DNA of 64,000 nt from Azolla caroliniana. Lineage: Eukaryota > Plantae > Polypodiophyta. This document shows positions 7,876 to 54,762 of this stretch, piece by piece. The notes beneath the pieces are model-generated. The model had not been told where the DNA came from. It did no database searches and saw nothing but the letters and a program-made list of their open reading frames with translations. Within the stretch, counting starts at the first letter, position 1; the number at the start of each line of letters is the position of its first letter. The stretch is taken from assembly GCA_043228905.1 (NCBI GenBank), contig JBHGNT010000006.1, positions 19,468,001 through 19,532,000 of the forward strand, read 5' to 3'. A program made the translations under genes and the position numbers.

Positions 7876-8299
7876 GTATGCAAGTTAGAGCTTTTGGATA
7901 TGTGTGAAGAAGCGTGAAAGTAACAGAACAGAGAGGAAGAGAGACGCAAGAGCATGAGCGGTGCCATAGTTGTATAATACTAGATGTTGTCATGATATGG
8001 CTCCAAAAGGATTTGAACCCATGACCTTGTATTACATGGGTTGAACCCTTACCATCAAAGCATGCATTGTAATACAAACAATATTATTTTCATTTATTAT
8101 TTTACCATAGGAAATTCATGTATATTCAAGATTACTCTAGAACATTCTAGAAACCTCAGGAGTACTCTTGAGAGTACTATAAATAGAGGCACATGGCATT
8201 GTTCAGAACCAATTCGGTTCAACGCCAGTCTTAAGCCTCCTAGCTACTCTTGTATCTTATCTTCATATAATATACCACTTGTTATCATCATTCTCTTCT

Positions 8300-8354
<55 letters not shown>

Positions 8355-9303
8355 CGCGTGCCCGTGAGTCTCCACACGCTTTTCCCCTTCTTAGTACTAA
8401 TCCTCATTCTTCCTCTCTATCTTTAGTACTAATTCTCCCTGTCTCTAGTACTATCTCTGACAGTTTGAATTGAATCTCTTATCCTTCCTTCCCTTCATAC
8501 GAATCCTCTTATCCTTCCTACTAAATGGCAATTGTTAGCGCTCAAGAATACCAATCCGTTTTCTCGGAGCTCCAGTGCTTAAAAGAGAATTTTGTAGCAC
8601 TAAAACAAGAAAATTAACGTCTATTGGGGGATCTTCAACAAATAGCTCTAGAAAAACAACACGGGGAGCTGACGTTACATGTGCAACAACTTGAAGAAAA
8701 TATTGTGTCACTACAACAATAGGGATCAAGCACTCAAGGAACTCCCAAAGAACCCAAGATCGGTCTTCCTATGAAGTTTGATGGAACACGATCACAATTT
8801 AGAGGATTTCTTACTCATGTACATTTGGTGATTCAAATGCATCCTTCTCGATATCCCATTGATGCATCACGAGTGGGACCAGTAGGCACACTACTTAATG
8901 GCACAACTCTGGCATGGCTCACCCCTTTATTAGAAAAAGGCTCTCCGTTGTTAAATAATTTTGAAGAGTTTATTAGCGAGTTTAAAGCATGTTTTGGAGA
9001 TACTAATAGCGTTAGGATGGCAATCAACAAAATCCGAAGACTGCGTCAAGGTGATCGGCCAGCCTCCGCTTATGCCGCGGATTTCCGTCTTCTCACCACC
9101 GATATTCCCTGGGATGACCAAGCGTTGATAGAGCAATTTCGTTATGGCCTACATAATGATGTCAAGGATTGACTCTTGACTTTCCCCGAAAAACCAAAGT
9201 CGCTCACAGAAACAATCAGTTGAGCGATACGATGCGATAACCTCCTTTTCGAACGACGTTCAGAACGTCAGTTCCAGATGCCAAGGACAAGAATAGAGCC
9301 CAC

Positions 9304-16898: not shown

Positions 16899-19366
16899 TG
16901 TCACATTCTAGACTCAAACATCTAATTTTTAACACACGATACACTGTGTTGTGTTAACCATATGGAAACTCTTGTGAATTGTCCACATTCGATTGTGAAC
17001 TTGTATATATTGTAGATTCTAATGTATAGTACATTTGCGAATATTCTAATCGTTAGTATATTCTAGAATTATTCTGTGGTATATTCTAAACGGGTATATT
17101 CTCGAGATATTTCTTGAGTATATTCTAGAGATATTCAATCTCGGAAATTGTATAAATACTTGTAACATCCTTGGTCCCTTTCAAGGAATTCAACACCAGT
17201 CATTGACACATCAATCTAGTATTCTCGTTTTGCCTCATCTTTGTCTCCTTGATCTTTATTTATATCTTCATGCTCTCATGTCGCTCACGACGTCTAGAAT
17301 TCCTAGGCTTGCCACATCTAGCTCCAAGTTCATCCATCGCTCATAGCCCCATCATCTGTGGTCCGTCCTAGTCTACCACTTGGTGTGTCCGTGACAGTTT
17401 GAATCCCTTCCAACTGGGAGCACCACCCGTCTTCGTCATCGCCTTTGCTTTTCGAGTTACCATCATCACCGTCCTTGCTTCCGGAGTTACCATCATCAAC
17501 AACCTTATCTTTGATGTCATCATTTTCAGCACCTCTTCGCCCAACCATCATCGTCATCAACACTACTTTTCATCATTTTTAGGTATCATTTTGTATCACG
17601 ATTTTGGTGAGGAGTGCTTTCGATCACTCACCTTCCCATTTCCGGTAGGGGTCACAACTACTCACTTTCCTGGTGGGGATCGGATCATTGCTCACTTGCA
17701 CTGCATTTTCGTTATAGTTCAAGACTCGTGTCACTTTCTGTTGGCGAGGACCAATTTCGATCGCTCACCTTCTAGTTTCAGTGGGGGTCACAACCGCTCA
17801 CTTTCCTGGTGGGGATTGTGTGGGTTTCTCGCTAGTGCTACCGTTTGTTCCGTGTCTTGGGTCAACCTCGACTATTGACCCTCTCATAATAGAAGAAGTC
17901 GAGTCGACCTCTTCACTTGCACTCCTTCGCTCGTTGTTGTTCCAGTTCTTGGTAAGGGCCGCGTGGTCGCTCACGCCCGTTCGTGTTTTCGATGAGGACC
18001 AGACATGGTCGCTCACGTTTCCAATTCCCGATGAGGGCCACACATGGTCGCTCACATCCATTCGTGTTCCAGTTCTCGGTGAGGGCCGCTTGGTCGCTCA
18101 CGCCCGTTCGTGTTTTTGATGAGGACTGCACATGGTCACTCATGTTCCAGTTCCCGATGAGGGCCACCCATGGTCGCTCACGTTCGTTCGTGTTCCAATT
18201 CTCGGTGAGGGTCGCATGGTCGCTCACGTCCATTCATTTTCCAGTTCTTGGTGAGGGCCACATGGTCACTCACGTCCGTTCGTGTTCCAGTTCTCGGTGA
18301 GGACCGCATGGTCGCTCACGCCCGTTGGTGTTCGTGTTCCAACTCTCGGCGAGGACCGACATGGTCTCTCATGCCTGTTGGTGTTCGTGTTCCTTGTGAG
18401 GACCACACATGGTCGCTCACTCCAACTATTGTTCGTGTTCCAGATCCCGATGAGGATCGACATGGTCACTCGTGCCTGTTGTTGTTCATGTTTCAATTCC
18501 CGGTGAGGACCACACATGGTCGCTCATGCCCGTTGGTGGTTGTGTTCCAACTCTCGGTGAGGACTGACATGGTCTCTCATGCCCATTGGTGTTCGTGTTC
18601 CCCATGAGGACCACACATGATCACTCATGCCTGTTGGTATTCGTGTTCAAGTTCCCGACGAGGACCGCACATGGTCGCTCATGCCTGTTGGTGTTCGTGC
18701 TCCCTATGAGGACCGTACATGGTCGCCCATGCCTATTGGTGTTCAATACCTTGTCTTCTGGAAGGGTTACTCCTTGTCTAGGATTTACAAAATACTTTGG
18801 AGGTGGTTTAAGCTTTTCATCAACAGTATCCCCTTAAGCCAAAGACCAGTTTGGGAAGGCGGCGTAAGAGGGGGGATAATGTCACATTCTAGACTTGAAC
18901 CTCTGACTTTTAACACACACAATACATTGTGTTATGTTAACCATATGGAAACTCTTGTGAACTGTCCACATTCGATTGTGAACTTGTATATATTGTAGAG
19001 TCTAGTGTATAGTACATTCTAGAATATTCTAATCATTAGTATATTCTAGAATTATTCTGTGGTATATTCTAAATGGGTATATTCTCGAGTATATTCTAGA
19101 GATATTCAATCTCGGAAATTGTATAAATGCTTGTAACATCCTTGGTTCCTTTCAAGGGATTCAACACCAATCATTAACACATTAATCTAGTATTCTCGTT
19201 TCGCCTCATCTTTTTCTCCTTGATCTTTATTTTTGTCTTCATTCTCTCATGTCACTCACAAAATCTAGACTTCCCAGGCTTGCCACATCTAGCTTCAAGT
19301 TCATCCGTCGCTCATAGCCCCATCATCTGTGGTCAGTCCTAGTCTGCGCTTGGTGTTTCCGTGATA
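16899..19366 (+). mobile_element. Non-autonomous, non-coding LTR element with internal tandem array
   Basis: Direct repeats 16899-17396 and 18880-19366 (TGTCAC..GTGACA/GTGATA); purine tract ending GGGGGATAA before the 3' LTR; no retro-domain ORF; no clear TSD. Confidence 0.85.
17930..18745 (+). repeat. Degenerate tandem array of about 35-50 bp units (core CATGGTCGCTCA...TTCGTGTTCC...GTGAGG)
   Basis: Recurrent unit visible in the DNA and as TWSLT repeats in the overlapping ORF translations. Confidence 0.9.
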
Positions 19367-22300
19367 GTGGCCCCCAGGCAAGTTCACACTTGGCCTAATG
19401 GGATGTCTCAATCTCGAGGATTAAAAGTAATCATCCCCTTCTTTACACTCTCGTTTAACCCTCACACTTTATCCACGTGTGTAGAATACTGCGGTACATT
19501 CTCACCATGGGATATTATATGGTTATGCCCGTAACATACTCCCCCTTCTTTAAAACATTGCACTCTTGCAATGGAAAGTTAGGGAAGTTAGTTCTAAGAG
19601 TATTTTCGCGTTCTCCTGTGGCATCTTTGATAGATTTATCCATCCATTTAATTTTAAATTCTCGGATTATTTTAGAATTCTTTCTGGTCCATGTGGTTTA
19701 GAAGATAATTCTTCGGAAGTAACCAGAGTTTCAATTCTCACTATATTGTCGTCAGAACCAAGAAGTTCTTTTAGACGACTTACATGAAAAACTAGATGGA
19801 TTTCAACGCCATCAAGAAGAGCAAGACAATAGGCAGATGACCCAATGCGTTTGAGGACAGTAAAAGGTCCACAAAACCGTGGGGCTGACTTAGCGCACTT
19901 ACCAGTAGACAATGTGTTAGAATTGTGAGGTACATGTAAAAATACCTTCTGTCCAGGGTTGAATAGACAAGGTTGCCTATTATGATCGGCATAAAAACGC
20001 GTTCTATCTTGAGATGTTTTTATATTATCTCATGCAATATGCCACATATCTTGCATATCCCGAAGAAAGTTTTGCGTACTTCGCAACTCATCATGATATA
20101 TATTAACATCAATAGGGGCTCGTGGCTGGAAACCATACATCAACATAAAAGGACTATATCTCGTCGATGTATGTTTGGAGTTGTTATAAGCCAACTTCAA
20201 AATTGGGAGATAACGTTCCCATTTTGTTGGTTTTGTACCAACATCTGCACAGAGCATGTCCTCAATCATTTGATTTACTCGTTTTGTCTGTCCATCGGAT
20301 TGAGGATGATCCATGGAGCTCATGCTCAATGTAGTTTCTAACTTCTTAAAGACTTGCGTCCAAAAGTCGCTAGTAAACTTTGGATCTCGATCACTCACGA
20401 TATCCATCGGTAACTCATAAAAACGAAATAACTCTTCAACAAATTGGTAAGCCAATTTAGAAACTGTTACTGTGGTTTTAGTAGCAATAAATCTAGCCAT
20501 TTTAGTTAGTCGATCAACCAAAACCCAGATGGCATCATGGCCTTTTTGGGTGTGAGGAAGGCAACAATAAAATCCATGGATATACTGTCCCACTTATTGG
20601 CCTTTTTGGGTGTGAGGAAGGCAACAATAAAATCCATGGATATACTGTCCCACTTATTATTGGGAATGTCCAAGGGATGTAAACGTTCAACGGCTTCAAG
20701 TCGCTCGGCTTTGTTAACCTGACACTGGTGACATTTAGCCACATAGCTATGTATGTCAGGACACATCTTAGGCCAAAAAAATTGAGTAGATATGAGAATG
20801 AGTGTGTGATGTATTCTAGGGTGCCCTACTGATGGTGCATCATGGCATTCAAAAAGAATTCTCTTTTTGACCACAGGAATATTTGGAACACAAACCTTCC
20901 CATTATGGTTAGATTAGTCCGTTAGCAATGTGGAAGGATTCCTTCGAGGATGTGGTGGTATTTGTTCTAGACTCAACGCTTGCCCAGTATTTTGCAAAAT
21001 AATTGTCATCAGGATACTTTCCTCGAAGGTGATCATAAAGATCTGATGTTATTTTAGTGAAGCTAAGCATGTTAACTTCACAGATGCGACTTAGTGCATC
21101 AACGACAATGTTCATGGAACCTTTACGATATCTTATGGAAAAATCAAAGTCCTAGATGAGATTTGCCCATCATGCCTTACGACCTTTCAGGTTTTGTTGA
21201 TCACAAAAATATTTCAAGGACTCGTGGTCTGTAGTTACCACAAAATGATTTCCATAAAGATAATAGTGCCATGTCTTGAGCGCATGAATAATTGCAAATA
21301 ATTCCTTTTCTTGCATGGTATACCGACACTGAGCAGAATCAAGTTTCTTACTCTCAAATGTTGTTGGTTTTCCATCTTGATATAGGACGGCTCCTATAGC
21401 ATAATCACTTGTGTCGGTTTTAACCTAAAAAGGTTTTGAAGGATCTCGTAAAAGAAGCGAAGGAGCCTTGCACACCAAGTCCTTGAGTTCCTTAAAGGCG
21501 AGGTCTAGTGTAGCATTCCACACAATAGGTTTTGTAGATTTATGCGTTTGCCCTTTGAGCAGATTAGCAAACGATGTCGTCAATTGGGAGTAATTATGAA
21601 GAGATTTTCGCAGAAACCCGACAAAACCAAGGAATGATCGAACTTCTCAAATATTCCGAAGAGTGGGCCAAGGTTTGACTTTCTCTATGCGAGAAGGATC
21701 AATTTCAACTCCTTGTTCGGTTATCAAATGTCCAAGATAAGTAATTGATTTCTTGAAGAACACACATTTTGAGATCTTCGTGTAAAACTATTTGTCGCGC
21801 AATGTTTGTAAAACAAATCGGACATGTTTAGCATGTGCTTCTAATGTACGACTATAAACTAGAATGTCATCCAAGAAAATAACAACAAAATTTCCAAGTT
21901 GTTCTCGAAAAATGTCGTTCATTTCCCATTGAAATGTGGTTGGAGCATTGGTCAAACCGAAAGGCATAACCAAAAACTCATAATGGTCATAGTGCGTATG
22001 AAATGTCGTTTTAGGAACATCTTCCTCACTTATACGAATTTGATGGTAGCCCGTACGAAGATCAAGTTTCGTAAAATACCGAGCTCCCTAGAGACAGTCA
22101 ATTAGATCGTCAGCCCGGGGCAATAGATATGAATTCTTGATCATTATTTTATTTAAGTGTCAGTAAGTAATACACATACGCCATGTGCCCTCTTTCTTTT
22201 TTACCAAGAGAATAGGTGCACCCCATCGAGATGTACTATGACGTATATAACCCATTCGTAAATATTCCTTGAGTTTCTTAGATACCTCATCCTTTTCGGA

Positions 22301-26252: not shown

Positions 26253-26870
26253 TGTCGTGAAGATTTTTGGAAATAGTGTAAAAATCGTGTGGAACAAACA
26301 AAATCGAGAAAGTGTAATGAGCTCTCAAACATTTGTAAATAAAATAAGACTAAAGCCTAGTAACCTTTGAGTCTATACAAAGGGGTGCAAGCAAGGCTTG
26401 AACCTTGCACCTCCATGATAAGAGACAAATTAACTTACCACTAAAGCCAGTACTAAGTGCTTTAGATTTTGTATATTCTCTTTTCATATTCAATATTTCG
26501 TAGGAAGCAAACATATAAAAACCATGAGCACAAAACCATAGTTTTAACCCATGGTTTTAGCCCATAGTTTCTGCATGGAGAGACCTATAAACGCCTATAA
26601 TGGGGCTTGTGTAAGGAGGCAACTGATGTAAGTAGAAAAAAAACTTGTAATCAAAGATCCGAGTTATCCTAATGGTGATGTATCTTGTCTCATAAAACTA
26701 AAGTCAAGGGTTCAATCTCTATCTCAATCTCTCTCTATCTCTTCATCCATCTATCTATCTTCAATACTTTCTTGCTTACGTTTTTAAAAACATCGAATCC
26801 TTCCGGTCTAGGACCCCAGTGGTCCCACTTCATTTCACGAACACACGAGGATTTCCTCGACATCTCCGAC

Positions 26871-35608: not shown

Positions 35609-36197
35609 CGGGACACGTCCAAAAGAACTGTCGGCATTTCCGTAAAGACAAGGAAACCGACGGTACCAATTCGAAGCAAACCTGTTACCCGGACCCGGAC
35701 AGTCAGTTTTACCGAACAAGTGGGAAAGCGTCGAAAACGGAGTCGGTTCAGATCGACTGTTCAGACCGATGATTCAGCAGTGAACGAAGAGAACTAAGTT
35801 AGTTAGATAATTTTGTAATTCTTGATAGTAAGTAGGAATAGTTCTTGATGAGAAAAGACCTTCGGTATACCTATAAAAGGGAACCGAAGGCATTGTAAGA
35901 AAGGTCGTTTATTTAGTAATATAAGTTTAAGTTAGGAATATCATGTACGGATTCTGTGTTCTTTCTATTGTCTATTTTGTTAAGTGCAATCTTCCTAATC
36001 TATAACTAAGTAATGATCACGGTAATTACCGATTAATATAGTATATTTCTGTTCGTAAAACACAATTCCTTGTTAGAACGTTGAGTAGCGACGTTCACTC
36101 TTCTGTATCGGTAGTAGTTAGTAATTAGCCGATTAACACAGAAGAAATTTGGCACGCCCGGTTACATCTGCAATTAAGCAGAGAACAAATCGAATGG

Positions 36198-41705: not shown

Positions 41706-44076
41706 ATAAATAAATAAATAAATAAATAAAACTAACTAACTAACTCACTCAATAGTTCTTGTCAATGCAGAAATAGAATCTTGCCATAACATTCTAAATC
41801 GACTATAAATAGGAAGAGGAATTGCATGATTATTAGTAAGTGGTACAACCACTACACGTAGAGTTAATACTAATTAATTCCTACATTAATAGCAATTACT
41901 ATTCTTTAGTCATAATGCATAAGTTAATATCTTTAAAGCATATTTCTGTATCTTCTGTGTCGCCAAAGCAACAGAAACGAGTGCAGATCTGAAACATTCT
42001 GAGCCTTCGTGCCCTAGCTCGCCCAAACTCTGTTTTTCTGATTTTCATCGCTATAGAAGCTGTGCAGATCTCCAACCGTCATCGACAAGTGATTCAGAAC
42101 AAGCAAACACAGAAGTCATGCCGATTCCTGTGTCTGAAGAACTGCGACTGTGGCTTCATGAGAGAAACTTACAAGGTTTCATCAAAGTAGCAGAAGCGGA
42201 ACCTCATCCGCACGCGGAAGAATTGGTACAACAATTAGACATCACCAAGGTCACCACAAAGAAAATACGAAATGCATTACAGATGCCAAGAGGAGGCTTT
42301 GATACAGTTAAAAAACCTTCATCAGAAGCACTTCAATCGTATTTCGGAGAATACTCACCCTCGGCAAAAGCATATCAGACTTATGGAGGTCGGGAGGAGT
42401 TTTTCCATGAAGTGGCTAGATTTTTACTAGAGGTGGGATTTGTCAGTCCCTGTTTTTATTGTATGCCGAAAAAAAGGGTTGGGTTTATCATAGCCGCATA
42501 CGAAAAAGAGGATTTCAACTGGCCACTATTGTCGGGGGAAGCTCTGAGAAAGCAGCTACAAGGGGTAAAAACAGGAAAACCAATGAAGCAAATTTTTGGT
42601 CGTTGGCTATCGGTATTGTTTCCGATTCAAGAATCGGAAACTCCTGTTCAGTCAAGAAGACCACCGATAGTACAAGCACCTCGAAGACACCGTCAGGTAG
42701 CACATGAAGAATGGATAGAGGAAGAATCGGCACATGCCGATAATATACAAACGGAAATGCCTCAGTCGGAACCACCAAGACCAGAGAATTCCGAAAACAG
42801 GCAACCAGCAGCCAAACAAGAAACCGTTGACCAGTTGATAAACAAGCAGCAGCCGACAGAAAATCGACAACAAGCAGAGAAGATGCGACAAAGGACAAGG
42901 GTTAAACAAAAGGCTAATCGGCAATTCCAACCAGAAAACAGTGATGAGTCAGCACCGAAAAGGCAACGCACAAAGGAAAATTCGAATACACCTGTAGTAA
43001 CAGAAGTAATAAAACCAGGGAATGAGAGCATTTCGACACAACTTCAACAAGGACAATCTTCAAAAGTAGCAATTTGGGAAGCACATGGGTGCTTGGATAT
43101 TCCACCAGCAGCACATGAGTTAGCTGCCATTTTACAGTTCGGAACTTCATACGAACTGGTTGAATGGTTGGCTAGAAGATTGACAGAAGTATCAGAACGG
43201 CTGGCTCAAGAACATCATGACCGAATAATGATACAGAAGTCCTTACGAGGAGTGTTGGAACCTCAAGAAAAAGCAGAGATAGAGAAAATCGGCCGGAAAA
43301 GAAATGCACAGAATAGAGGGGAGGCTATTGAAATGCCACCATTACATGAAGCACTGGTCGAAATTTATAGAGAATATGAAAAGGCACGCAAAGCAGCCAG
43401 TGATATGGCTGAAAGATACAAAAGTGTATCAGCATCGGCGGAGGTGCTGAAACGTCAGTTTTGTAACATACAAACAGAAAATAAAGAACTAAAAGAAAGT
43501 CTAAACAAATGGGAAACACAGGCACGACCTATGGCGTCGGAGTCAGAATGGCAGCAGAAATTGGAGGACGCCGAGAAAGCACGTCAAGTAGAAACAACAA
43601 GGGCCAACAATGCTGTATTTCGAACTATAGAATTAGAAAAATAAATAGAAACCATTCAGAATGGCCAATACAAAGTTCTCGAAGAAAAAAATCAATTAAT
43701 AAACGAATTACAGAAAAATCTGGAAGAAGCTAAGACGGCCAATCATACATATACCGAACAAATTGAGGAATTCGAAAGGTATATAGTGTCATAACTAGAC
43801 TCGAACCCATAACCTTTTGTTACACGGGTCGAGACTTTACCATTAGGTTATGAATTGTAATTTGAAGGATATTATTTTCATTTAGGTTTTATTGGGAAAT
43901 TGATGTATATTCCAGATTTCTCTGGAACATTCTAGAAACTTCAGGAGTATTCCTGAAGACACTATAAAAGGAGGCGCAAGGCATTAGTTCGAACCAAATC
44001 GGTTCAACGCCAGTCTTAAGCCTTCTAACTACTGTTGTATATCTTCCTTCATATAATACATATATCTTTCGCATCA

Positions 44077-44118
<42 letters not shown>

Positions 44119-44311
44119 ATTCCTTCTCTGTCTTAGTACTATTCCCCAACAATAGTACTAATCCTTCTTTTAGTACTAATTCCTTCTCTGCCTTAATAGA
44201 GTTCCTGACAGTTTGAACCGATTTTTGGGTGCCTGTCTGGTCTTTTCTCTCCCTCTTCCTTCTGTCTCCCTCCTTTCCTACTAGTCTCTTATTTCCCTTT
44301 TCCTTCATCCC

Positions 44312-45481
44312 ATGGCCACCGTTAGCGCTGAAGAGTATCAATCCGTTTTCTCGGAATTTCAATGCTTGAAAGAGAAGTTTCATGCTTTGGAACAAGAAAA
44401 TCAACGCTTGTTGGGGGATCTTCAGCAAATTTCCTTAGAAAAGCAGCAAACGCAACAACAGCATGGGGAACTTGCGTTACGCGTGCAACAACTCGAAGCA
44501 ACCATCGTAGCAATGCAACAACAAGGGCACGGAGCACAAGGGATTCATAAAGAACCCAAGATTGGCCTTCCCACGAAGTTCGATGGAACGCGATCGCAGT
44601 TTAGAGGGTTTCTTAACCAGGTACGGTTAGTTATTCAAATGCATCCGTCCCGATATCCCACCGATGCATCACGAGTGGGTTTAGTAGGCACGTTGTTAAA
44701 TGGCTCAGCATTAGCATGGTTCGCTCCGCTACTAGAAAAGGAATCTCCAGTACTAAATAATTTTGAAGAATTCATAAGTGAGTTTAAAGCATGTTTTGGA
44801 GATACTGACAGCATAAGGACTGCAATCAACAAAATCCGGCGATTACGCCAAGGTGACCGTCCAGCCTCCGCATATGCTGCAGATTTCCGCCTACTCGCCG
44901 CCGATATCCCCTGGGATGATCAAGCATTGATGGAACAGTTCCGCTATGGTCTACGCAACGATGTCAAGGATTTACTCTTGACTTTCCCTGAAGAGCCAAA
45001 ATCATTAACAGAAGCAATCAGTCGAGCGGTAAGATGTGACAACCGCCTCTTCGAGCGACGTTCGGAACGACAATTTCAGATGCCGAGGGCAAGATCCGAG
45101 CCTACCTATGCCTCAGTGGTAGCAAAACCTTTTCAAAGGGAGTCACATAATGCGCCTCCAGTAAGTACTCCAACTCCAATGGAAATTGACACTACACGTC
45201 GTCGTGGGCCGCTATCGGAGGAGGAAAAGCAACGACGCCGAACAAACCGATTATGCCTTTATTGCGGTGGACCAGGGCATATCGCGATAAACTGTCCCCA
45301 TAGACCAAGAAGGCAGGTAAACCAAGTCGTTGTTAGTTCTGACTATACTAAACCCGAGTCTATTTCAGTAGGAATCTCTGATAGTCCTCATAGTCATAAT
45401 AGTCCTAATAGTACTAATAGTCCGAATCTCACAAACAAATTTGATGTCCTTAGCCAATTAGAAGAAGAGTTAAACGACTAA
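44312..45481 (+). CDS. gag: Gag (coiled-coil N-terminus, retrotransposon gag domain, CCHC knuckle)
   Basis: 389 aa; PTKFDGTR, LRQG...YAADF, CLYCGGPGHIAINC. Confidence 0.95.
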   Translation: MATVSAEEYQSVFSEFQCLKEKFHALEQENQRLLGDLQQISLEKQQTQQQHGELALRVQQLEATIVAMQQQGHGAQGIHKEPKIGLPTKFDGTRSQFRGFLNQVRLVIQMHPSRYPTDASRVGLVGTLLNGSALAWFAPLLEKESPVLNNFEEFISEFKACFGDTDSIRTAINKIRRLRQGDRPASAYAADFRLLAADIPWDDQALMEQFRYGLRNDVKDLLLTFPEEPKSLTEAISRAVRCDNRLFERRSERQFQMPRARSEPTYASVVAKPFQRESHNAPPVSTPTPMEIDTTRRRGPLSEEEKQRRRTNRLCLYCGGPGHIAINCPHRPRRQVNQVVVSSDYTKPESISVGISDSPHSHNSPNSTNSPNLTNKFDVLSQLEEELND

Positions 45482-48400
45482 GTCCAGCCAAAATAGGAGC
45501 CGTTTGGTTGGACAGCCCTAGATCTGTGCAGCCCATTAGTGGTTCCATTCCCTCTAAGCAAGTTAGTGATGTGTTCGTAGCCCAAGTAGCAGTTAGTACT
45601 AAAAGTACCCCTCCAGTACATACCTTAGCCCTTCTAGATTCCGGAGCTAATTCTTGCTTCATGGATAGGAATTTTGCCCGAGCTCATCAGATATCTCTCA
45701 GAAAGCTCCCATGTCCAGCCTCAGTAGTAGTCATTGATGGTCGTCCCATTGCTTCTGGTAATATCATAGAAGAGTCGGAACCCGTTAATATTGTCCTAGA
45801 TAACTTAACATGTGTAGTATCATTTAATATTATTAGTATTCCAGAACATCCCATAGTTTTAGGATTACCATGGTTCGAGTTACATAACCCAAACATAGAT
45901 TGGAGGACAAGGGAAATCCGGTTGCGACAAACCCAAGGATCTACCCAGAAGGTTGCAACCATTTCGCTACATCAGTTGCGTGAGGAAGGGCGCAAGGAGG
46001 AAATGTTTCTCTTCGCAATATCAGTACAACCCTCCAGCACCACCAAAGAGGAGTCCACCGTTCAACTTCCCGAGAAGTATCGTCAGTATGCTGATGTGTT
46101 CGATAAAGTACAAGCCAACACACTTCCTCATCATCGGCCGTACGATTGCGCCATCGACTTACAACCGGGAAAAGAGCCGCCATGGGGGCCGATCTACAAT
46201 TTGTCACCAACCGAGCTAGAAGTCCTCCGAGCCTATATAGAGGAGAATTTGGAGAACGGTTTCATTCGGCATTCGAAATCTCCAGCCGGTGCACCCATTT
46301 TCTTCGTCAAGAAAAAAGATGGCTCGCTTCGACTCGTTGTAGATTACCGTGGCTTGAATAAGGTCACAGTAAGAAATAGGTATGCTCTTCCCCTTATCTC
46401 AAGTCTTTTAGAACGGATCAACGGTGCCAGGTTCTTCACGAAGATCGACTTACGAGGAGCCTATAACCTCGTACGGATCCGACCAGGAGATGAATGGAAG
46501 ACCGCGTTTCGCACCAGATATGGGCACTTCGAGTATACGGTCATGCCGTTCGGACTCACTAATGCGCCGGCAGTCTTCCAGCACATGGCGAATGATATAT
46601 TTCGAGATCTCTTGGATGATTTTTTGATCATCTATTTGGATGATCTACTGGTTTATTCAAAGACCCAAGAAGAACATGATTCTCATGTACTATTAGTACT
46701 AAAACGACTTCGAGAACATGGTCTGTATGCAAAGTTAGAGAAATGTAGTTTCGGGTGCAACCAAGTGGAATTTCTCGGCTATGTCATCTCCTCAGAAGGC
46801 ATATCTATGGACCCAGCCAAGGTGAAAACGGTGATAGAATGGCACACTCCGCGTTCGGTGCGGGATGTGCAATGCTTCCTAGGCTTTGCAAATTTTTACC
46901 GGAAGTTCATACAAAATTACTCAAAAATTGTGCTGCCTCTCACACAGCTCACCAGGAAGGGACAATCATTCATTTGGTCTAAAGAGACGGACATGGCTTT
47001 CGAGAGTCTTAAGAAGACGTTTACATCAGCTCCAATTTTAGGTCATGTGGATCCGGAAAAACCATTCATTATCGAAGCTGACGCATCGGATTTCGCATTG
47101 GGGAGCATTCTGTCACAACAGGGTAACGACGAGAAGCTACATCCTGTGGCTTTCCACTCCCGTAAGTTTGACGCCGCCGAAATCAACTACGAAATTCATG
47201 ATAAAGAGCTATTAGCAATAGTTGATTCTTTTATGCAATGGAGGCATTTCCTGGAGGGATCTCCTCATCAGGTCACTGTATTCAGTGACCACAAGAACCT
47301 TGCCTACTTTCAAGATGCTCGTGTACTGAATCGACGTCAAGCTCGGTGGGCCCACTTCCTCACACGCTTCGACTTCAAAATTACATATCGTCCGGGGAAG
47401 CACCAAGGGAAGGCAGATGCATTATCACGGCGTTCGTATCTAACACCACGTCCCGGTGAGCCAGCTTTCGATAACCAGAAGCAAGTAATCTTGGGTCCAG
47501 CACGACTGCAAGCAGCACAAGTCTTTGACATGCCCGTGGATTCCGACATTACCAATACTATACGTGAGGACTTGAAGACTGACGCTTTCGCCCAAGCTAT
47601 ACTAGCACAAATTGACCCCTCTCGAGCGTCATGTTCACAATCACAATCACCAGGTACGGATTATCGGCAATTCAAATACTGTGATGGATTACTCTTCTTT
47701 AAAGAACTTTTGTATGTTCCTAATGGTTCTTGCCGCCTTCGAGTAGTACAAAATTGCCATGACACATATACAGCAGGACATTTTGGTAGTACTAAAACAT
47801 TAGATTTAGTACAACGATCATTCTGGTGGCCCCGTATGCGACAATTTGTTGAAGATTTTGTTCGGACTTGCGATACATGCTGCAGAGCGAAAATGCCAAG
47901 ACATCATCCATATGGTTTATTAGAACCATTACCAATTCCAAGCAAGCCATGGCAATCCATTGCTCTTGACTTCATTACAGATCTTCCAGTCTCTAAGGGA
48001 TTCAGTGCGATTCTCACAGTGGTGGATCGATATACGAAGATGGCTCATTTCTTACCATGTACTAAAGAAATATCTAGTGAAGACACCGCCGAAATTGTCA
48101 TGCGGGAAGTATGTCGGCATCATGGACTCCCTGATAATATCATCAGCGATCGTGGACCCCAGTTTGTGTCAAAATTCTGGAAGCACCTTTTTAAAATGCT
48201 GAAGGTCACTTGTAACCTCTCCTCCGGCTACCACCCACAAACCGACGGTCAAGCCGAACGAACAAATCAAACACTGGAGCAGTATCTGCGGTGCTTTCTC
48301 AACTATCATCAGAATGACTGGGCAGATATTCTTCAGTTCGCCGAATTTGCCTATAATAACACTATCCACGCATCGACTAAAGTCACGCCATTCTACGCTT

Positions 48401-49065
48401 ATACGGGATATCATCCCCGGTGGTGTGTCCTTGAAACCCCAGAAGTGTCCACAAATCCTTGCGCGGAGGATCGTTTGGAGCGGTTACGCAAGATACAAGC
48501 GGATTTATCTACTCAACTCCAGCAAGCTCAACAATCACACAAGGACTACGCAGATCGTCATCGACTTCCATCCAGTTTTAACATTGGAGATCGGGTGTGG
48601 CTGCTACGACGACACATCAAGACTACTCGCCCATGTGAGAAGTTGGATTATCGGCGATTAGGTCCTTTCCGTATTATCGGGAAGATTAATGATGTCGCTT
48701 TTCGTCTCGAGCTACCTCCGCAACTTCGGATACATCCGGTGTTTCATAGTTCTCTCCTCGAACCCTATCACGAGAGCACTATCCCAGGACGTACTATACA
48801 ACCACCACCTCCTATCGAGCTCGAAGATGGACCTGAGTATGAGGTCGCTGCCATCCTCGATTCCAAGATTGTTCGCAACAAGCTCTACTATCTAGTCGAT
48901 TGGCTAGGATATAGTCCCAGCGAGCGTACTTGGGAACCGATCGAGAATGTGACCAATGCTCGTGCTCTTCTAGAAGACTTCCATCGACGATATCCCGAGA
49001 AACCGGGTCCTCAATCCAAAACGACTCGTGGAACTCGTCGTTTTAAAGGGGGGATAGTGTCATAA
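45469..49065 (+). CDS. pol: Pol (PR, RT, RNase H, integrase, chromodomain), probably expressed by -1 frameshift
   Basis: Frame open from 45454 (track ORF 45508-49065); LLDSGA, YLDDLL, DASDF, DGQAERTNQ, GPF, YEVAAILD...YLVDWLGY...TWEP chromodomain. Confidence 0.95.
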   Translation, partial: VKRLSPAKIGAVWLDSPRSVQPISGSIPSKQVSDVFVAQVAVSTKSTPPVHTLALLDSGANSCFMDRNFARAHQISLRKLPCPASVVVIDGRPIASGNIIEESEPVNIVLDNLTCVVSFNIISIPEHPIVLGLPWFELHNPNIDWRTREIRLRQTQGSTQKVATISLHQLREEGRKEEMFLFAISVQPSSTTKEESTVQLPEKYRQYADVFDKVQANTLPHHRPYDCAIDLQPGKEPPWGPIYNLSPTELEVLRAYIEENLENGFIRHSKSPAGAPIFFVKKKDGSLRLVVDYRGLNKVTVRNRYALPLISSLLERINGARFFTKIDLRGAYNLVRIRPGDEWKTAFRTRYGHFEYTVMPFGLTNAPAVFQHMANDIFRDLLDDFLIIYLDDLLVYSKTQEEHDSHVLLVLKRLREHGLYAKLEKCSFGCNQVEFLGYVISSEGISMDPAKVKTVIEWHTPRSVRDVQCFLGFANFYRKFIQNYSKIVLPLTQLTRKGQSFIWSKETDMAFESLKKTFTSAPILGHVDPEKPFIIEADASDFALGSILSQQGNDEKLHPVAFHSRKFDAAEINYEIHDKELLAIVDSFMQWRHFLEGSPHQVTVFSDHKNLAYFQDARVLNRRQARWAHFLTRFDFKITYRPGKHQGKADALSRRSYLTPRPGEPAFDNQKQVILGPARLQAAQVFDMPVDSDITNTIREDLKTDAFAQAILAQIDPSRASCSQSQSPGTDYRQFKYCDGLLFFKELLYVPNGSCRLRVVQNCHDTYTAGHFGSTKTLDLVQRSFWWPRMRQFVEDFVRTCDTCCRAKMPRHHPYGLLEPLPIPSKPWQSIALDFITDLPVSKGFSAILTVVDRYTKMAHFLPCTKEISSEDTAEIVMREVCRHHGLPDNIISDRGPQFVSKFWKHLFKMLKVTCNLSSGYHPQTDGQAERTNQTLEQYLRCFLNYHQNDWADILQFAEFAYNNTIHASTKVTPFYAYTGYHPRWCVLETPEVSTNPCAEDRLERLRKIQADLSTQLQQAQQSHKDYADRHRLPSSFNIGDRVWLLRRHIKTTRPCEKLDYRRLGPFRIIGKINDVAFRLELPPQLRIHPVFHSSLLEPYHESTIPGRTIQPPPPIELEDGPEYEVAAILDSKIVRNKLYYLVDWLGYSPSERTWEPIENVTNARALLEDFHRRYPEKPGPQSKTTRGTRRFKGGIVS

Positions 49066-49347
49066 CTAGACTCGAACCCATAACCTTTTGTTACACGGGT
49101 CGAGACTTTACCATTAGGTTATGAATTGTAATTTGAAGGATATTATTTTCATTTAGGTTTTATTGGGAAATTGATGTATATTCCAGATTTCTCTGGAACA
49201 TTCTAGAAACTTCAGGAGTATTCCTGAAGACACTATAAAAGGAGGCGCAAGGCATTAGTTCGAACCAAATCGGTTCAACGCCAGTCTTAAGCCTTCTAAC
49301 TACTGTTGTATATCTTCCTTCATATAATACATATATCTTTCGCATCA

Positions 49348-49389
<42 letters not shown>

Positions 49390-51257
49390 ATTCCTTCTCT
49401 GTCTTAGTACTATTCCCCAACAATAGTACTAATCCTTCTTTTAGTACTAATTCCTTCTCTGCCTTAATAGAGTTCCTGACATATAGTGTCACAGGAAAGT
49501 CAATTGACAGAGAAAGAGCGGAGTCTTGAAGAAGTCAACAGAAGAATTACGGAACAGCAGGAGGAATGGAGCAAAGAGAAATCGGCATTCGAACAACAAC
49601 TGAATGAAATCCGGAAGATATCGGAACAAAGGCGGCTGGACATATATATAGTCGAATCCAAACTAATGCAGGCTGAAAGTGAAAACCGAGCCACCATTAC
49701 GGATTTACGGAAAGAGTTGCAAGCCGCTCAATTCGACGCAAGCATCACTAAGGACAAAGTGCAGCACATCATAGGGAAACATCGAAACCTAGCAAAGAAA
49801 ATGATCGACGAATCCCTTGCGCAAGGATGGAAGTTATGGACGGCACAAGCGGCGGAATTACAGTTATTGCGTGCCGACAAAAATAACCGTCAGGTCCAAG
49901 GTGCAGGTTTTTTTTAAATGGCACAAAAGGATATTGACAATATCCAAGAGGATATCATGAAAGATATGGACGAAATTGCGGCATTTTACAGAGAAGAAAT
50001 TCAACGTATTATGCAAGAATTCGACAAAAATGATATAGGCACTTCCGTCCAGTTGGATAAAATCGAAGCCGAAAGAACCAGCAAGACTCCTGGTCTTCAA
50101 GCTCCCGAAAGAAGTGAACCAGAGCAGCCAACCGAATCACAACATTCAAAACCTGCTCCGAAGGACGACTGTGACACAGATGAAGATGAAGATGAAGAGG
50201 AAGATATAGATGGAATACATCCAAGGCCAGAAGAGCCTTCGATTTTTGATATTCTGAACGATTCGGATGAAGAGCTACAGGAATAGGCGTGGGTTCGCTG
50301 GACAAGGTCCTAGCCCACGGACGTGCCAAGTGTTACCCGGACCCGGACAGTCAGTTTTACCGAACAAGTGGGAAAGCGTCGAAAACGGAGTCGGTTCGGA
50401 TCGACTGTTCAGATCGATGACTCAGCAGTGAACGAAGAGAACTAAGTTAGTTAGATAATTTTGTAATTCTTGATAGTAAGTAGGAATAGTTCTTGATGAG
50501 AAAAGACCTTCGGTATACCTATAAAAGGGAACCGAAGGCATTGTAAGAAAGGTCGTTTATTTAGTAATATAAGTTTAAGTTAGGAATATCATGTACGGAT
50601 TCTGTGTTCTTTCTATTGTCTATTTTGTTAAGTGCAATCTTCCTAATCTATAACTAAGTAACGATCACGGTAATTACCGATTAATATAGTATATTTCTGT
50701 TCGTAAAACACAATTCCTTGTTAGAACGTTGAGTAGCGACGTTCACTCTTCTGTATCGGTAGTAGTTAGTAATTAGCCGATTAACAAAACCTCGGACCAG
50801 AACGGTAAAGACCAGAACGGTAATGACCGGAGGGGGCCGGACCAGAAGGGAACGACGGCAATCGCGGCAAGTGAAGAAGAGTTGATGCTCATCACCGAGG
50901 AGAGTGAGATAAACCTTGCCGGTGACGAGATGACCTGGGTGGTAGACTCCGGAGCATCGTTCCACCTTACCCCGGACCGGAAATGCTTCGCATCCTACTC
51001 AGCCGGTGACCACGGCTGTGTCCGGATGGGGAATGAAGGTACATGCCGAATTGTCGGCATAGGAGACGTGTGGCTGACAACACCAACCGGATGCAAGTTG
51101 CTGTTGAAGGATGTCCGACACGTTCCGGAAGTTCGTCTGAACCTGATCTCAGCCGGTCGGCAAGATGATGAAGGCTACACGGGTAGCATCCGGAACGATG
51201 TCATGAAGTTAAGCAAAGGGAGCCTGATTGTGGCTCGGGCCCGGAAGGGAAACACGT

Positions 51258-54200
51258 TGTCGCGAAGATTCGCGCGTGCGTGTGCTACTCGAGCGACCAC
51301 CGGGGTCTTGGACTGGGGAGGATGTTCGCGGAATTGTCGAAGAGATGACGATCAATGTAAGATTAGATGAAATTGGTTTACTTGAGAAGAAGAAAAACAT
51401 GAACACTTGAGAAGTAGGAAAACATGAACAAGATAAAGACAAATATTATATTGATGATAATGGTGTTGGTGATATCACATATTGAGCCCCCCTTACACAA
51501 GCCCAACTAGAGGCTTTTATAGGTCTTTCCATGCTCGTGACATGCACATAACCATGGGCTAAAACCATGGTTTTGTGCACACGGTTTTGCTTATGTCATG
51601 CACAAACCATGGGTTTAAAACCATGGTTTTGTGCACATGGTTTTCTATGGTTGTTTCGTCTATAATTTGTATATCAAAAGGAAATACATACAATCTACAC
51701 TATATGATAGTTGTCCTAGTGGTAAGGCAATTATCTTGTATGTTTGAGGTGCAAGGTTCAAACCTTGCTTGCACCCCTCTATATGAACTCAAGTGCCACT
51801 AGGCCTTAGGAGGCTTATTTGCTAAGTGTATGTGCACATCCTTGGTTTATTCGTCTCACTCGGTTTCACACCGTAGCCGAAAATCGTCACGACATCCACC
51901 CCCACCAAACCCGCACATCCTCCGGTATGTGCCGAGAAAGGTGAAGAGGTGAGATCTTTGGCAACGGTGATCAACCGAGTTCCTCTGCACGCTCGTCGAC
52001 TTCGTCTTCCACTTCGAGTATGCGCAATCTTTCCAACCGAACCACCGTAGCCACCCGATCCACCATATCCGGCGCTCACACCTTCTTCCCCGATCGGTTG
52101 TAGTAGATCTACCGAACGATGTCGTCGATACGACCGCTCTTCCTTCGTCCACCGCGCGTGTCCTTCGATTGGACTCCTGGCCACTCCTCACGCTCACCGT
52201 CTTCAACTTGGTATTGTAGATCGTTCGTGTCGATCTCCGATTAGGACGGGTTTGCCCTTGTCCGGATCGGTCTCCACCGATCGCTTCTTGGCTTGGTTGG
52301 CCTTCGTCTGCATTCACATTTCCCCGAGTCGGGCTCGACCGATTGATTCTGGCTGGGTCGGCCCCCTTCTGGATCGGAATCGTCCGATCGATTTTCGCCG
52401 AATCAGGTTTCGGCCGGGTTGGCCCCGGTCGATCGGCTCCCATGTGGATCTTCCTTCGTTCGGGTCGGAATCCCGGCCGGATCGTCTTCCGGTTCAACCG
52501 GTTCTCGACTCTTCCTTCCTTCCCGCATGCAACCTCTCCATCGAACTCAACCGCAGCTTCATCCTTGGCCTCCACGTCGGCCATATCCTTCCCTCCATGT
52601 ATGCTCGCCGCGAGCCATATTGTCTCCTCTTCACCACCTCCTTTATCTTCGGTCTTATGCCGACACACGGTCTCGACTGCCGAAGTCTCCGGAACCAGTG
52701 TGAAGGAATCCCTTCGTTCATTTACATTTACCTTGTCTTCTTCATCGCCCTTCCGGTCGTCCTCTTTTTTGTCCACACATTCTGTCTCTCCAGTCTCACG
52801 TTGGCGCACGTGCACAACCGTCGAAGTCTCTAGAATAGGTGTGGGGATATCCTTTCTTCCTCGATCTTCTTCCTCCTTGTGTTGGGCCTTCGTCTTCCCG
52901 TCACCACCTTCCGTCTCTCCGGTCTCACGTTGGCACATTGGCGCAACCGCCGAAGTCTCTGGAACAAGCGTGAAGAAAGTGTCGACATGGCTATCCGTCG
53001 TCGACTCATCCATAGCCACCTCCGACTCGATGTCGTTTGTCATGGCTACCTCCTCAATCTCTTCAGACTCAAACACTTTTTCTCCCTCGATCATGCAAGC
53101 TTTTCTCATGCTTGCGCCGTCATCACCCGATGTTTCGTACACAATGCGTGTTCCGAAACATTTATCCTCCCTCGAAGTGGCGTTCGCCGTCCTCGAGTCA
53201 TCGGCCTCCTCCTTCGCCGTCGTTTCTTTGTAAGACAAGAAGGTGACTTGTTTCACACCTTCTCTCTCGGTACCGTCATACCGAACTAGAGCCTTTGTAT
53301 CGGCCACTTCATTAACCCGCATTTGTTGGGAGGTCTCTTCTTCCTCGATCACCATTCGCCTCGGTTTTGTCTCCCTTCTAAGCTTCATTTCTTTTGTTGG
53401 TGATGCGTTGTTGCATCTCGTCCCTCTTCGATCGTCCCTCATGGGCCGTCTTGTTGTCATCGATATTCTCGCTTGCCCCTTATCGTGTAGTCGGCATACA
53501 CTTTCCACTTTGCTCCAATCCTCGATGAGGCCATTTGCACCATCATCTTCTTCGAGTTTGAGGCCGATCGCCATTCTTTCCATTCGATCGATTGACTTCA
53601 CGAACATAAGGACCTTATCGACCCCCACCAATCTTTGTTCCCGCTCCGACAATTGAGAAAAATGATGCTCGAAGTCTACGAATGCTTGTGTCGCACCTTG
53701 GTGGGTCTTCGCTGATGTCACCCATTGGTCGAAGTTGCGTCGATCTTGTCCCTTCTGCCTCTCATAGCCATATTCCTCCAATAGAGCCTTCTCGAAAGTC
53801 GTCCACGAATCATGAGCTTCTAGAAGCTCTTCTACATCTTTGAAGATCGGTTGAGACACCACCCGACAAAAGTACTCTAGCCTCATAGCTTTGTCCACAC
53901 CTCTTGAATCCATCTCCGCATTGTAGACTTTTAGGAAACTTTGGACATCGGCGCCGTTGAAATAGCTCATTCGTTCGACTACTTTGTCGACGGCTTGTTG
54001 GGCTTCATTTCTTCTTTTCTCTTCTCTCAGAAACTCCATCATCCTTCTTGCCATTGCCTCCATGAGATATTCGCCATCCATCTTCGTCCTCCCCTGCTGC
54101 TCTTCACGTCGGGTTCACCAAATGATGTCGCGAAGATTCGCGCGTGCGTGTGCTACTCGAGCGACCACCGGGGTCTTGGACTGGGGAGGATGTTCGCGGA

Positions 54201-54762
54201 ATTGTCGAAGAGATGACGATCAATGTAAGATTAGATGAAATTGGTTTACTTGAGAAGAAGAAAAACATGAACACTTGAGAAGTAGAAAAACATGAACAAG
54301 ATAAAGACAAATATTATATTGATGATAATGGTGTTGGTGATATCACATATTGAGCCCCCCTTACACAAGCCCAACTAGAGGCTTTTATAGGTCTTTCCAT
54401 GCTCGTGACATGCACATAACCATGGGCTAAAACCATGGTTTTGTGCACACGGTTTTGCTTATGTCATGCACAAACCATGGGTTTAAAACCATGGTTTTGT
54501 GCACATGGTTTTCTATGGTTGTTTCGTCTATAATTTGTATATCAAAAGGAAATACATACAATCTACACTATATGATAGTTGTCCTAGTGGTAAGGCAATT
54601 ATCTTGTATGTTTGAGGTGCAAGGTTCAAACCTTGCTTGCACCCCTCTATATGAACTCAAGTGCCACTAGGCCTTAGGAGGCTTATTTGCTAAGTGTATG
54701 TGCACATCCTTGGTTTATTCGTCTCACTCGGTTTCACACCGTAGCCGAAAATCGTCACGACA
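51258..54762 (-). mobile_element. Young non-autonomous gag-only gypsy element
   Basis: 637-bp LTRs 51258-51894 and 54126-54762 (1 mismatch seen); 4-bp TSD ACGT; minus-strand PBS TGGTGAACCCGACGTGA (tRNA-Trp-like) at about 54104-54120; no pol. Confidence 0.93.
51856..54081 (-). CDS. gag: Gag-like protein with long acidic/repetitive C-terminal extension
   Basis: 741-aa ORF; N-terminal ~200 aa resembles the gag ending at 27866 (DKVLMFVKSID vs DKVLLFLKAVD). Confidence 0.8.
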   Translation of the reverse strand: MDGEYLMEAMARRMMEFLREEKRRNEAQQAVDKVVERMSYFNGADVQSFLKVYNAEMDSRGVDKAMRLEYFCRVVSQPIFKDVEELLEAHDSWTTFEKALLEEYGYERQKGQDRRNFDQWVTSAKTHQGATQAFVDFEHHFSQLSEREQRLVGVDKVLMFVKSIDRMERMAIGLKLEEDDGANGLIEDWSKVESVCRLHDKGQARISMTTRRPMRDDRRGTRCNNASPTKEMKLRRETKPRRMVIEEEETSQQMRVNEVADTKALVRYDGTEREGVKQVTFLSYKETTAKEEADDSRTANATSREDKCFGTRIVYETSGDDGASMRKACMIEGEKVFESEEIEEVAMTNDIESEVAMDESTTDSHVDTFFTLVPETSAVAPMCQRETGETEGGDGKTKAQHKEEEDRGRKDIPTPILETSTVVHVRQRETGETECVDKKEDDRKGDEEDKVNVNERRDSFTLVPETSAVETVCRHKTEDKGGGEEETIWLAASIHGGKDMADVEAKDEAAVEFDGEVACGKEGRVENRLNRKTIRPGFRPERRKIHMGADRPGPTRPKPDSAKIDRTIPIQKGADPARINRSSPTRGNVNADEGQPSQEAIGGDRSGQGQTRPNRRSTRTIYNTKLKTVSVRSGQESNRRTRAVDEGRAVVSTTSFGRSTTTDRGRRCERRIWWIGWLRWFGWKDCAYSKWKTKSTSVQRNSVDHRCQRSHLFTFLGTYRRMCGFGGGGCRDDFRLRCETE

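What the first reader, a model, noticed from the sequence alone, without database searches (positions are those of the whole stretch)
43791..43855. Antisense tRNA-like Pol III promoter (A and B box) at the 5' tip of chromovirus LTRs
Seen, minus strand: TAACCTAATGGTAAAG...GGTTATGGGTTCGAGTCTAG; A-box-like 43850-43840, B-box GGTTCGAGTC 43807-43798, starts 43 nt apart as in a tRNA; repeated in the 3' LTR. The diverged relative LTR keeps both boxes and the spacing despite different intervening sequence (TGCTTTGATGG 8062-8052; GGTTCAAATCC 8019-8009). The non-coding element's LTR has a weaker version (GGTTCAAGTC 18901-18892). Knowledge: Cassandra TRIMs carry 5S-derived Pol III promoters in their LTRs, and TFIIIC-bound B boxes act as chromatin barriers in yeasts. 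Inference: a tRNA-derived module kept as an insulator or antisense promoter.
Basis: partly seen in the sequence, partly recalled or inferred. Interest (0 to 1): 0.72.

Follow-up and report, generated by a model that had tools for sequence, protein, structure and literature searches.

The report
Backward tRNA promoter in retrotransposon ends
Two unrelated groups of jumping genes in this genome, which is probably a moss, carry a worn, backward-facing piece of a tRNA gene at the front of their end repeats; its conserved core likely binds the tRNA-gene factor TFIIIC, which would help keep the element's own promoter open, but binding and function are untested.

Summary
All cited coordinates check out. 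The element is an intact, recent, self-priming chromovirus of Tcn1 type. The module is tRNA-like beyond chance: a profile built from unrelated prokaryotic tRNAs ranks these LTR tips top in the window. Variable loop, T-loop and, in two relatives, the 3' acceptor strand sit in exact tRNA register. The extended B box (GTCnnnnGTTCRAnYC) is kept in six LTR types, down to 55% Pol identity, where the rest of U3 aligns barely better than shuffled. The A box is lost in two of them. There is no cloverleaf and no conserved Pol III terminator. New here: an unrelated gypsy lineage in the window (RT 27% identical) also carries an antisense A/B module in U3. Best reading: a captured tRNA/SINE head, likely kept as a TFIIIC site upstream of the Pol II promoter (about 0.45). 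A relic, an antisense promoter and tRNA pairing remain rivals. Closest known: Helenus TRIMs (sense, non-coding). The scan has not noted this sequence before; it noted antisense tRNA-like units inside fungal gypsy elements.

The parts
43787..49481 (+). Element A: intact Ty3/gypsy chromovirus of Tcn1 type, 5-bp TSD TATAG
43787..44210 (+). A 5' LTR (424 bp, TG...CA), identical to the 3' LTR
43840..43850 (-). A-box-like sequence (tRNA positions 8-19; A instead of G at 10)
43798..43815 (-). Variable loop (44-48) plus extended B box; 1 mismatch to GTCnnnnGTTCRAnYC (T at 48)
43793..43852 (.). Imperfect inverted repeat overlapping the module (fold z about -2.7 on both strands); not shared by all relatives
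43963..43968 (+). TATAAA of the LTR Pol II promoter, 113 bp from the A-box start across AT-rich U3 (30% GC)
43996..44007 (+). 12 nt complementary to the PBS: predicted self-primer and inferred transcript start
44213..44224 (+). Self-priming PBS, 12/12 complementary to the LTR
44285..45481 (+). gag (Retrotrans_gag, zf-CCHC)
45454..49065 (+). pol: PR-RT-RH-INT-SH3-chromodomain; chromodomain keeps the Y/W/Y aromatic cage
49045..49054 (+). Polypurine tract (present)
49069..49121 (-). Copy of the module in the A 3' LTR (49058-49481)
7998..8062 (-). Element B module in LTR 7988-8462: A box 8062-8052, exact extended B box 8025-8010, tRNA register unbroken to nt 73
18892..18909 (-). Non-coding element C, 3' LTR (18880-19368): exact extended B box, no A box in register; decayed in the 5' LTR (16899-17396)
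51712..51764 (+). Element D (51258-54762, minus strand, one gag-like ORF, tRNA-type PBS), 3' LTR: A box 51712-51722 and B box 51749-51764, antisense to the element, in U3
54580..54632 (+). Same module in the D 5' LTR (54126-54762)
26395..26449 (-). Element E (LTR 26253-26863, plus strand; gag-PR-RT remnant related to D): antisense A/B module in U3
26665..26718 (+). Second, sense-strand tRNA-like A/B match in the R/U5 of E; borderline (18.9 bits), absent from D

Best explanation
The U3 tip of these retrotransposon LTRs holds a degenerate, backward-facing copy of a tRNA gene or tRNA-derived SINE head, likely captured once in each of two lineages and likely kept because its extended B box binds TFIIIC, which would act as a boundary or open-chromatin anchor 110-190 bp upstream of the element's own Pol II promoter. 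[quoted passage not shown] Inferred: capture by insertion into one LTR followed by copying to both LTRs during reverse transcription; purifying selection on the master elements; TFIIIC occupancy; protection of the promoter in a nest of silenced elements. In this model, facing away would place any TFIIIB footprint toward the TATA box and keep Pol III from running through the Pol II promoter. Occasional antisense Pol III transcription from copies with a good A box would be a by-product.
For: tRNA likeness against independent references. Exact register to nt 73 in B and L015; T stem 4/5 pairs in A, B, L015 and L016; A-to-B spacing 43-46 nt while the distance from B box to LTR end varies from 11 to 36 nt. 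Across six LTR types (A, B, L015, L016, L017, C3), 63 of 66 cells match the published extended B box. 6 of 9 fixed columns are invariant against 0 of 33 free columns, including the five free positions inside the box (consensus from PMC3159450). The rest of U3 aligns at 0.58-0.71 against 0.53-0.66 for shuffles in the 9 of 10 pairs other than A-B. At the CpG of positions 56-57, the tolerated change (CA) is found in 5 of 8 types and the damaging one (TG) in 1 of 8. In four DNA runs, the A-box variants of the L016 subfamily fall at positions 9 (A/G), 11 (C/T) and 12, and the two L016 departures in the B box revert to consensus in 74-84% and 97-98% of depth (all 23 rows shown). A second lineage, with RT 27% identical and gag D-E 32% identical, has the same orientation; between D and E the extended B region is 17/18 and the next 12 nt are 12/12 identical, against 91/130 in the 5' flank and 16/24 in the spacer. 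The B box is the high-affinity TFIIIC anchor, and ETC sites act as insulators without Pol III (PMC11811891 passages; PMC3159450 passages).
Against: There are no binding, chromatin or expression data. A versus B shows no box-specific conservation. Within the L016 subfamily the terminal 16 nt and 15 nt of spacer are as invariant as the boxes, and 16-26% of depth lacks C56. A itself departs from consensus at positions 10 and 48. The column test was anchored on the box and the six types are related, so its p value is descriptive only. The module is dispensable in the clade: not seen in L018 (54% identity over the integrase end) or L094 (44% Pol), nor by eye in the Selaginella SM-Tcn1 LTR (PMC2864245 supplement). 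A score of 14 bits or more on the minus strand behind pol was found in 2 of 99 loci, and in 0 of the 97 loci at 54% identity or below. Only two independent lineages are known, so the shared antisense orientation is not significant. Barrier activity of TFIIIC comes from yeasts and animals; I found nothing on it in plants.
Confidence: 0.45

Rival explanations
1. Neutral relic: a SINE or tRNA piece inserted into ancestral LTRs and was carried along; it only looks conserved because it is non-repetitive and alignable, while the rest of U3 turns over by repeat expansion.
For: A-B pair shows no box-specific conservation. A box lost in L017 and C; B box decayed in the C 5' LTR and the L016 copy. Absent from other clade members. 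Kojima notes that 'not a few' Repbase LTRs hold tRNA-like parts.
Against: Fixed box columns are kept while free columns inside and beside them vary. The pattern lasts to 55% Pol identity and recurs in a second lineage.
Confidence: 0.2
2. Working antisense Pol III promoter: it makes a short RNA that runs out of the LTR; from the 3' LTR it would cross the PPT and the end of pol, tuning the element or seeding siRNA.
For: A and B boxes at tRNA spacing in A, B, L015, L016, D and E. No T4 lies between the boxes on the template-sense strand; A's 3' LTR would give about 100 nt. Foamy-virus U3 regions hold working A/B-box Pol III units (PMC3993851 passages).
Against: No conserved terminator or product length (+54 to +1079). 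A box lost in two types. No shared RNA fold (z from -2.9 to +0.9 on the tRNA-sense strand of the eight antisense modules).
Confidence: 0.15
3. RNA-level role in reverse transcription: on the genomic RNA the module is complementary to tRNA T- and D-loops just behind the PPT, as in the U3 half of the Ty3 bipartite PBS, or it folds into a hairpin that helps PPT priming or strand transfer.
For: The orientation and position fit Ty3 (PMC5371799 passages). A tRNA-like sequence in HIV-1 U3-R is reported (title seen only as a reference in PMC6468702). An inverted repeat overlaps the module in A, B and L016.
Against: A and L015 are predicted self-primers (12/12) and need no tRNA primer. D's module matches the primer implied by its own PBS at only 4 of 15 positions. 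Positions 49-52, which pairing would need, vary freely. The long hairpin is not the predicted fold in L015, C, D or E, and in D and E the module lies about 130-195 nt from the LTR end.
Confidence: 0.13
4. Self-made landing pad: TFIIIC/TFIIIB on the module attracts new insertions, as tRNA genes and isolated B boxes do for Ty3 and TRE5-A.
For: Isolated B boxes are TRE5-A targets (PMC3159450 passages).
Against: No nested insertion in this window lies just upstream of a module: the copia in B sits about 1.2 kb away, A lies inside an ORF of another gypsy, and D lies inside a copia pol.
Confidence: 0.04

Closest known systems
Helenus TRIMs / TRIMp3 (Kojima 2024, PMC10886601; parts 1-4 of 6 of the text, find passages and supplement hits read)
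   Same: A tRNA-derived sequence inside the LTRs, conserved around boxes A and B, without a functional cloverleaf; SINE insertion proposed as origin; one family known in a non-seed plant (Selaginella).
   Different: Helenus is short and non-coding, and its tRNA part is in sense (seen in Helenus-1_SMo), proposed to transcribe the element. Here it is antisense, at the U3 tip of a 5.7-kb autonomous element with its own TATA promoter, so it cannot make the genomic RNA.
Cassandra TRIMs (as described in PMC10886601)
   Same: A Pol III promoter module in LTRs of land-plant elements.
   Different: 5S-derived, with conserved terminators, non-autonomous and shown to be transcribed. Here tRNA-type, with no conserved terminator.
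Foamy virus U3 Pol III miRNA cassettes (PMC3993851, passages)
   Same: A/B-box Pol III elements in U3 of an autonomous LTR retroelement.
   Different: These have defined hairpins, terminators and detected small RNAs. Here no terminator or shared fold, and tRNA register is kept.
Ty3 bipartite PBS (PMC5371799, passages) and the tRNA-Lys3-like sequence in HIV-1 U3-R (reference title only)
   Same: Sequence complementary to tRNA arms in U3 near the PPT.
   Different: Those pair with the element's own primer tRNA. A is a predicted self-primer, and D's module does not match its primer.
ETC/COC sites and isolated B boxes (PMC3159450 and PMC11811891, passages)
   Same: The extended B box is kept with a weak or lost A box; proposed barrier role.
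   Different: Those are chromosomal sites in yeasts, amoeba and animals, not parts of a replicating LTR; occupancy is not shown here.
Tcn1 chromoviruses, e.g. SM-Tcn1 (PMC2864245 passages and supplement S3; PMC6317226 passages)
   Same: Canonical chromodomain, predicted self-priming, 5-bp TSD, LTR of about 430 bp, same R-region motif.
   Different: By eye the SM-Tcn1 LTR lacks the module; neither paper's passages mention one.

Membership tests
Tcn1 chromovirus (host element) | Gypsy order PR-RT-RH-INT with C-terminal chromodomain | tested here: met
Tcn1 chromovirus (host element) | Chromodomain keeps the aromatic cage | tested here: met
   Y, W and Y align with CDY/CDYL cage positions; naming them as the cage residues rests on established knowledge
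Tcn1 chromovirus (host element) | Self-priming PBS complementary to the LTR | tested here: met
   12/12 in A and L015; 10/11 in C; lost in B
Tcn1 chromovirus (host element) | Groups with reference Tcn1 RT in a tree | not tested
   No named reference was available as a locus; SM-Tcn1 was compared by eye only
Helenus / TRIMp3 | tRNA-derived sequence with conserved boxes in the LTRs | tested here: met
Helenus / TRIMp3 | Non-autonomous TRIM of about 0.3-1.3 kb | tested here: not met
   A is 5,695 bp with gag and pol; C is 2.5 kb; D is 3.5 kb
Helenus / TRIMp3 | Promoter in sense, able to make the template RNA | tested here: not met
   Antisense in A, B, C, D, E, L015, L016 and L017; sense in Helenus-1_SMo
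Cassandra | 5S rRNA-derived LTR segment | tested here: not met
   No 5S match in Rfam scans
Functional tRNA gene | Cloverleaf with acceptor and anticodon stems | tested here: not met
   Acceptor 0-4 of 7 pairs and anticodon stem 1-3 of 5 pairs; no ARAGORN or Rfam call
Pol III type-2 promoter | A and B boxes at tRNA spacing | tested here: met
   43-46 nt in A, B, L015, L016, D and E; no good A box in L017 or C
Pol III type-2 promoter | Defined T4+ terminator giving a discrete RNA | tested here: not met
   First T4 at +54 to +1079
Pol III type-2 promoter | TFIIIC, TFIIIB and Pol III occupancy and a transcript | not testable with these tools
   Only contigs were available
ETC-type TFIIIC site | Extended B box GTCnnnnGTTCRAnYC | tested here: met
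   Exact in B, C3, L015 and L017; 1 mismatch in A, D and E; 2 in the L016 copy
ETC-type TFIIIC site | TFIIIC bound without Pol III; barrier activity | not testable with these tools
   needs ChIP and reporters
Free-standing SINE | Dispersed copies with their own tail and TSD | tested here: inconclusive
   All 7 window hits above 18 bits lie in LTRs, which make up at least 11% of the window; no genome was held to search
Ty3-type bipartite PBS | U3 segment complementary to the element's own primer tRNA | tested here: not met
   A is a predicted self-primer; D matches at 4 of 15 positions

The most novel reading that the evidence does not exclude
Unrelated, autonomous gypsy lineages of a bryophyte have independently captured tRNA-gene promoters and keep them facing outward in U3 as a portable TFIIIC boundary that shields their Pol II promoter inside heterochromatic nests. 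This would be a selfish-element insulator built from the host's tRNA machinery, and the first handle on TFIIIC barrier function in plants.
Probability: 0.3. Interest if true: 0.8.

Novelty: new variant of a known kind. Interest (0 to 1): 0.58.

Why it matters
Pol III promoter pieces in plant LTRs have been described for tiny non-coding elements, where they drive the element's own RNA. Here they sit backward in full coding elements of two lineages, where they cannot do that job, yet the B box looks conserved. If TFIIIC binds, these high-copy LTRs would scatter many TFIIIC sites through the genome, and they would offer a simple test of whether TFIIIC barriers exist in plants and of how elements nested in silent chromatin stay active. 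If the module is a relic, it is still a lineage marker and a source of false tRNA calls.

Tried and rejected
No genome is held, so copy-wide tests were limited. Functional tRNA rejected: ARAGORN gave 0 in the window and in 60 loci; Rfam gave no tRNA hit at E<10. ARAGORN at lowered thresholds is unspecific (20 calls in 7 LTRs at ps70) and was not used as evidence. No RNA holder listed among public runs; both read-laying runs used DNA contigs only. The IMG/VR protein scans gave only distant gypsy elements. A DNA-pattern scan of IMG/VR gave 73 loci, none with retroelement proteins, and 56 of the 73 matches lay inside real tRNAs. L016 (149 bp) and L094 (296 bp) had too little sequence behind pol for the 99-locus count and were scored separately. 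Three of the 99 loci scored 14-18 bits on the plus strand behind pol (L032, L058, L114); not followed up. Chance-level or unrelated hits of 22 bits or more occurred 3 times in 744 kb. Three other LTR families of the window (9304, 35683, 30736) lack the module (p 0.17-0.66). A single conserved hairpin was rejected. A common origin of the A-type and D-type modules was not supported: spacer 8-11 of 24 at the best of three shifts. The parent tRNA could not be assigned: D has a C-T-TGT-A loop in register, while A, B and L015 have TGT shifted by one. One search showed 40 of 79 variant rows, none in the B box or variable loop; the hidden rows are unknown. Ten literature searches found no description of this module in Tcn1 or moss LTRs. 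Subscription papers, Repbase entries, Neumann 2019 files 1 and 3 (too large) and the Novikova 2010 DOC files could not be seen and may bear on novelty. PMC2593192 and PMC2802660 are not held.

Full report
Setting. The window is a nest of LTR retrotransposons. The finding lies at the start of element A (43787-49481): identical 424-bp LTRs, TSD TATAG, gag, pol with RT-RH-INT-SH3-chromodomain, and a PPT. The chromodomain keeps the aromatic cage. The 12 nt after the 5' LTR are complementary to LTR positions 210-221, 33 nt behind TATAAA, so A is a predicted self-primer and the module lies in U3. These are the features that Neumann 2019 gives for Tcn1 chromoviruses of mosses and clubmosses (PMC6317226 passages). 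Public holders include leaf and plant metagenomes. A bryophyte host is therefore an inference.

The observation. All coordinates are right. It is not a tRNA gene: ARAGORN and Rfam find none. To test tRNA likeness without circularity I took prokaryotic tRNAs from two genomes. An HMM of 54 of them ranked B, A (twice) and the C 3' LTR first in the window; B alone is significant (E=2.4e-4). A two-box score from 44 unique tRNAs gave A 25.9 and B 26.4 bits, above all 1000 shuffles of each LTR and above the maxima of 30 shuffled windows. The published extended B box, GTCnnnnGTTCRAnYC (PMC3159450), matches exactly twice against 0.14 expected.

Relatives. Fetching by protein rather than by motif gave three close elements: L016 (80% Pol identity), L015 (73%) and L017 (55%). 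All have the module antisense within the first 90 nt of the LTR. In tRNA register, A, B, L015 and L016 keep 4 of 5 T-stem pairs and 3-4 of 4 D-stem pairs, and B and L015 run unbroken to position 73, but the acceptor and anticodon stems fail. Across six types, 63 of 66 cells fit the extended B box; 6 of 9 fixed columns and 0 of 33 free columns are invariant. This count is anchored on the box and the types are related, so it describes a pattern rather than proving selection. The rest of U3 aligns only 0.04-0.08 above shuffles in 9 of 10 pairs. The A box is out of register in L017 and C. The module is missing from L018 and L094, from all 97 scored loci at 54% identity or below, and by eye from SM-Tcn1. 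It is thus a feature of one sub-lineage.

Variation among copies. Contigs of four DNA runs (three coded organisms besides the first) were laid on the module. On L016, A-box variants fall at positions 9, 11 and 12, and the two B-box departures of that copy revert to consensus in most depth. However, 16-26% of depth lacks C56, and the LTR tip and part of the spacer are just as invariant. On A, position 10 is the consensus G in 23-86% of depth (40 of 79 rows shown).

A second lineage. The scan of the window also picked out elements D (51258-54762, minus strand) and E (LTR 26253-26863). E's RT is 27% identical to A's. D has a tRNA-type PBS (its identity as tRNA-Trp is recalled) and a 4-bp duplication. 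D and E share 32% gag identity. Both carry an A/B module antisense in U3, about 140-190 bp upstream of TATA. Between them the B region is 17/18 and the next 12 nt are 12/12 identical, against 70% in the 5' flank and 16/24 in the spacer. Outside the boxes the two lineages share little, so separate captures are the simpler reading.

How it likely works. The antisense module cannot make the genomic RNA, unlike in Helenus. A discrete antisense RNA is unlikely because the first T4 lies anywhere from +54 to +1079 and no fold is shared. Pairing with a primer tRNA, as in Ty3, fails for a self-primer and for D (4/15). What is kept throughout is the extended B box, the high-affinity anchor of TFIIIC, which also marks insulator sites that lack Pol III. 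I therefore favour a TFIIIC site that bounds or opens the LTR promoter (0.45), then a neutral relic (0.2), an antisense promoter (0.15), an RNA-level role (0.13) and a landing pad (0.04). Occupancy and function are inferred, not shown.

Known and new. Helenus is the closest family but fails on size, autonomy and orientation. Kojima remarks that 'not a few' Repbase LTRs have tRNA-like parts and analysed only short ones, so the bare phenomenon has been glimpsed. Foamy viruses show working Pol III units in U3. Ten searches found no account of an antisense, B-box-conserved module in autonomous plant gypsy LTRs. The scan's own notes hold no look-alike sequence, only analogous units inside fungal elements and a different tRNA-Arg feature that replaces the PPT in another lineage of this genome (unchecked). 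Verdict: real, tRNA-derived, probably selected, function open; a new variant of a known kind; interest 0.58.

Noticed in passing
window 26665-26718 (+): Element E has a second, sense-strand tRNA-like A/B match in R/U5 (18.9 bits, within the range of shuffled-window maxima), absent from D.
   Followed up: partly
window 51258-54762 (-): Element D is a recent non-autonomous gypsy (LTRs 99.8% identical) with one 752-aa gag-like ORF without a Pfam hit, a 4-bp target duplication and a tRNA-type PBS; its U3 is about 75% identical to E's over 209 bp while gag is only 32% identical.
   Followed up: partly
window 16899-19368: Non-coding element C shares LTR motifs and a self-priming PBS (10/11) with the Tcn1-type family and has an internal array of diverged tandem repeats of about 46-127 bp; no matching TSD was seen.
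   Followed up: partly
PMC2864245 supplement S3 (SM-Tcn1): By eye, the 12 nt after the SM-Tcn1 5' LTR are complementary to its R region, so it looks self-priming although the paper found no such evidence (Neumann 2019 later predicted this for the clade).
   Followed up: no
window 41923-43644 and onward past 49482: A inserted into a long extra ORF without a Pfam hit behind pol of another gypsy (LTRs 35683-36138 and 50331-50786).
   Followed up: no
window 43980-43995 (+): A sense B-box-like match (1 mismatch) at A's inferred transcript start; not kept in B or L015.
   Followed up: partly
L083:594 (-), L032:9466 (-), L068:4567 (-): tRNA- or SINE-like A/B matches (16-26 bits) in distant metagenome loci, away from the LTR start.
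   Followed up: no
L094:4473-4510: The LTR of this distant relative (44% Pol identity) starts with a perfect 9-bp inverted repeat whose arm resembles the A-type tip, without a tRNA module.
   Followed up: no
L094-L173: Many GTDB prokaryote genomes hold contigs with eukaryotic gypsy integrases, most likely contamination.
   Followed up: no
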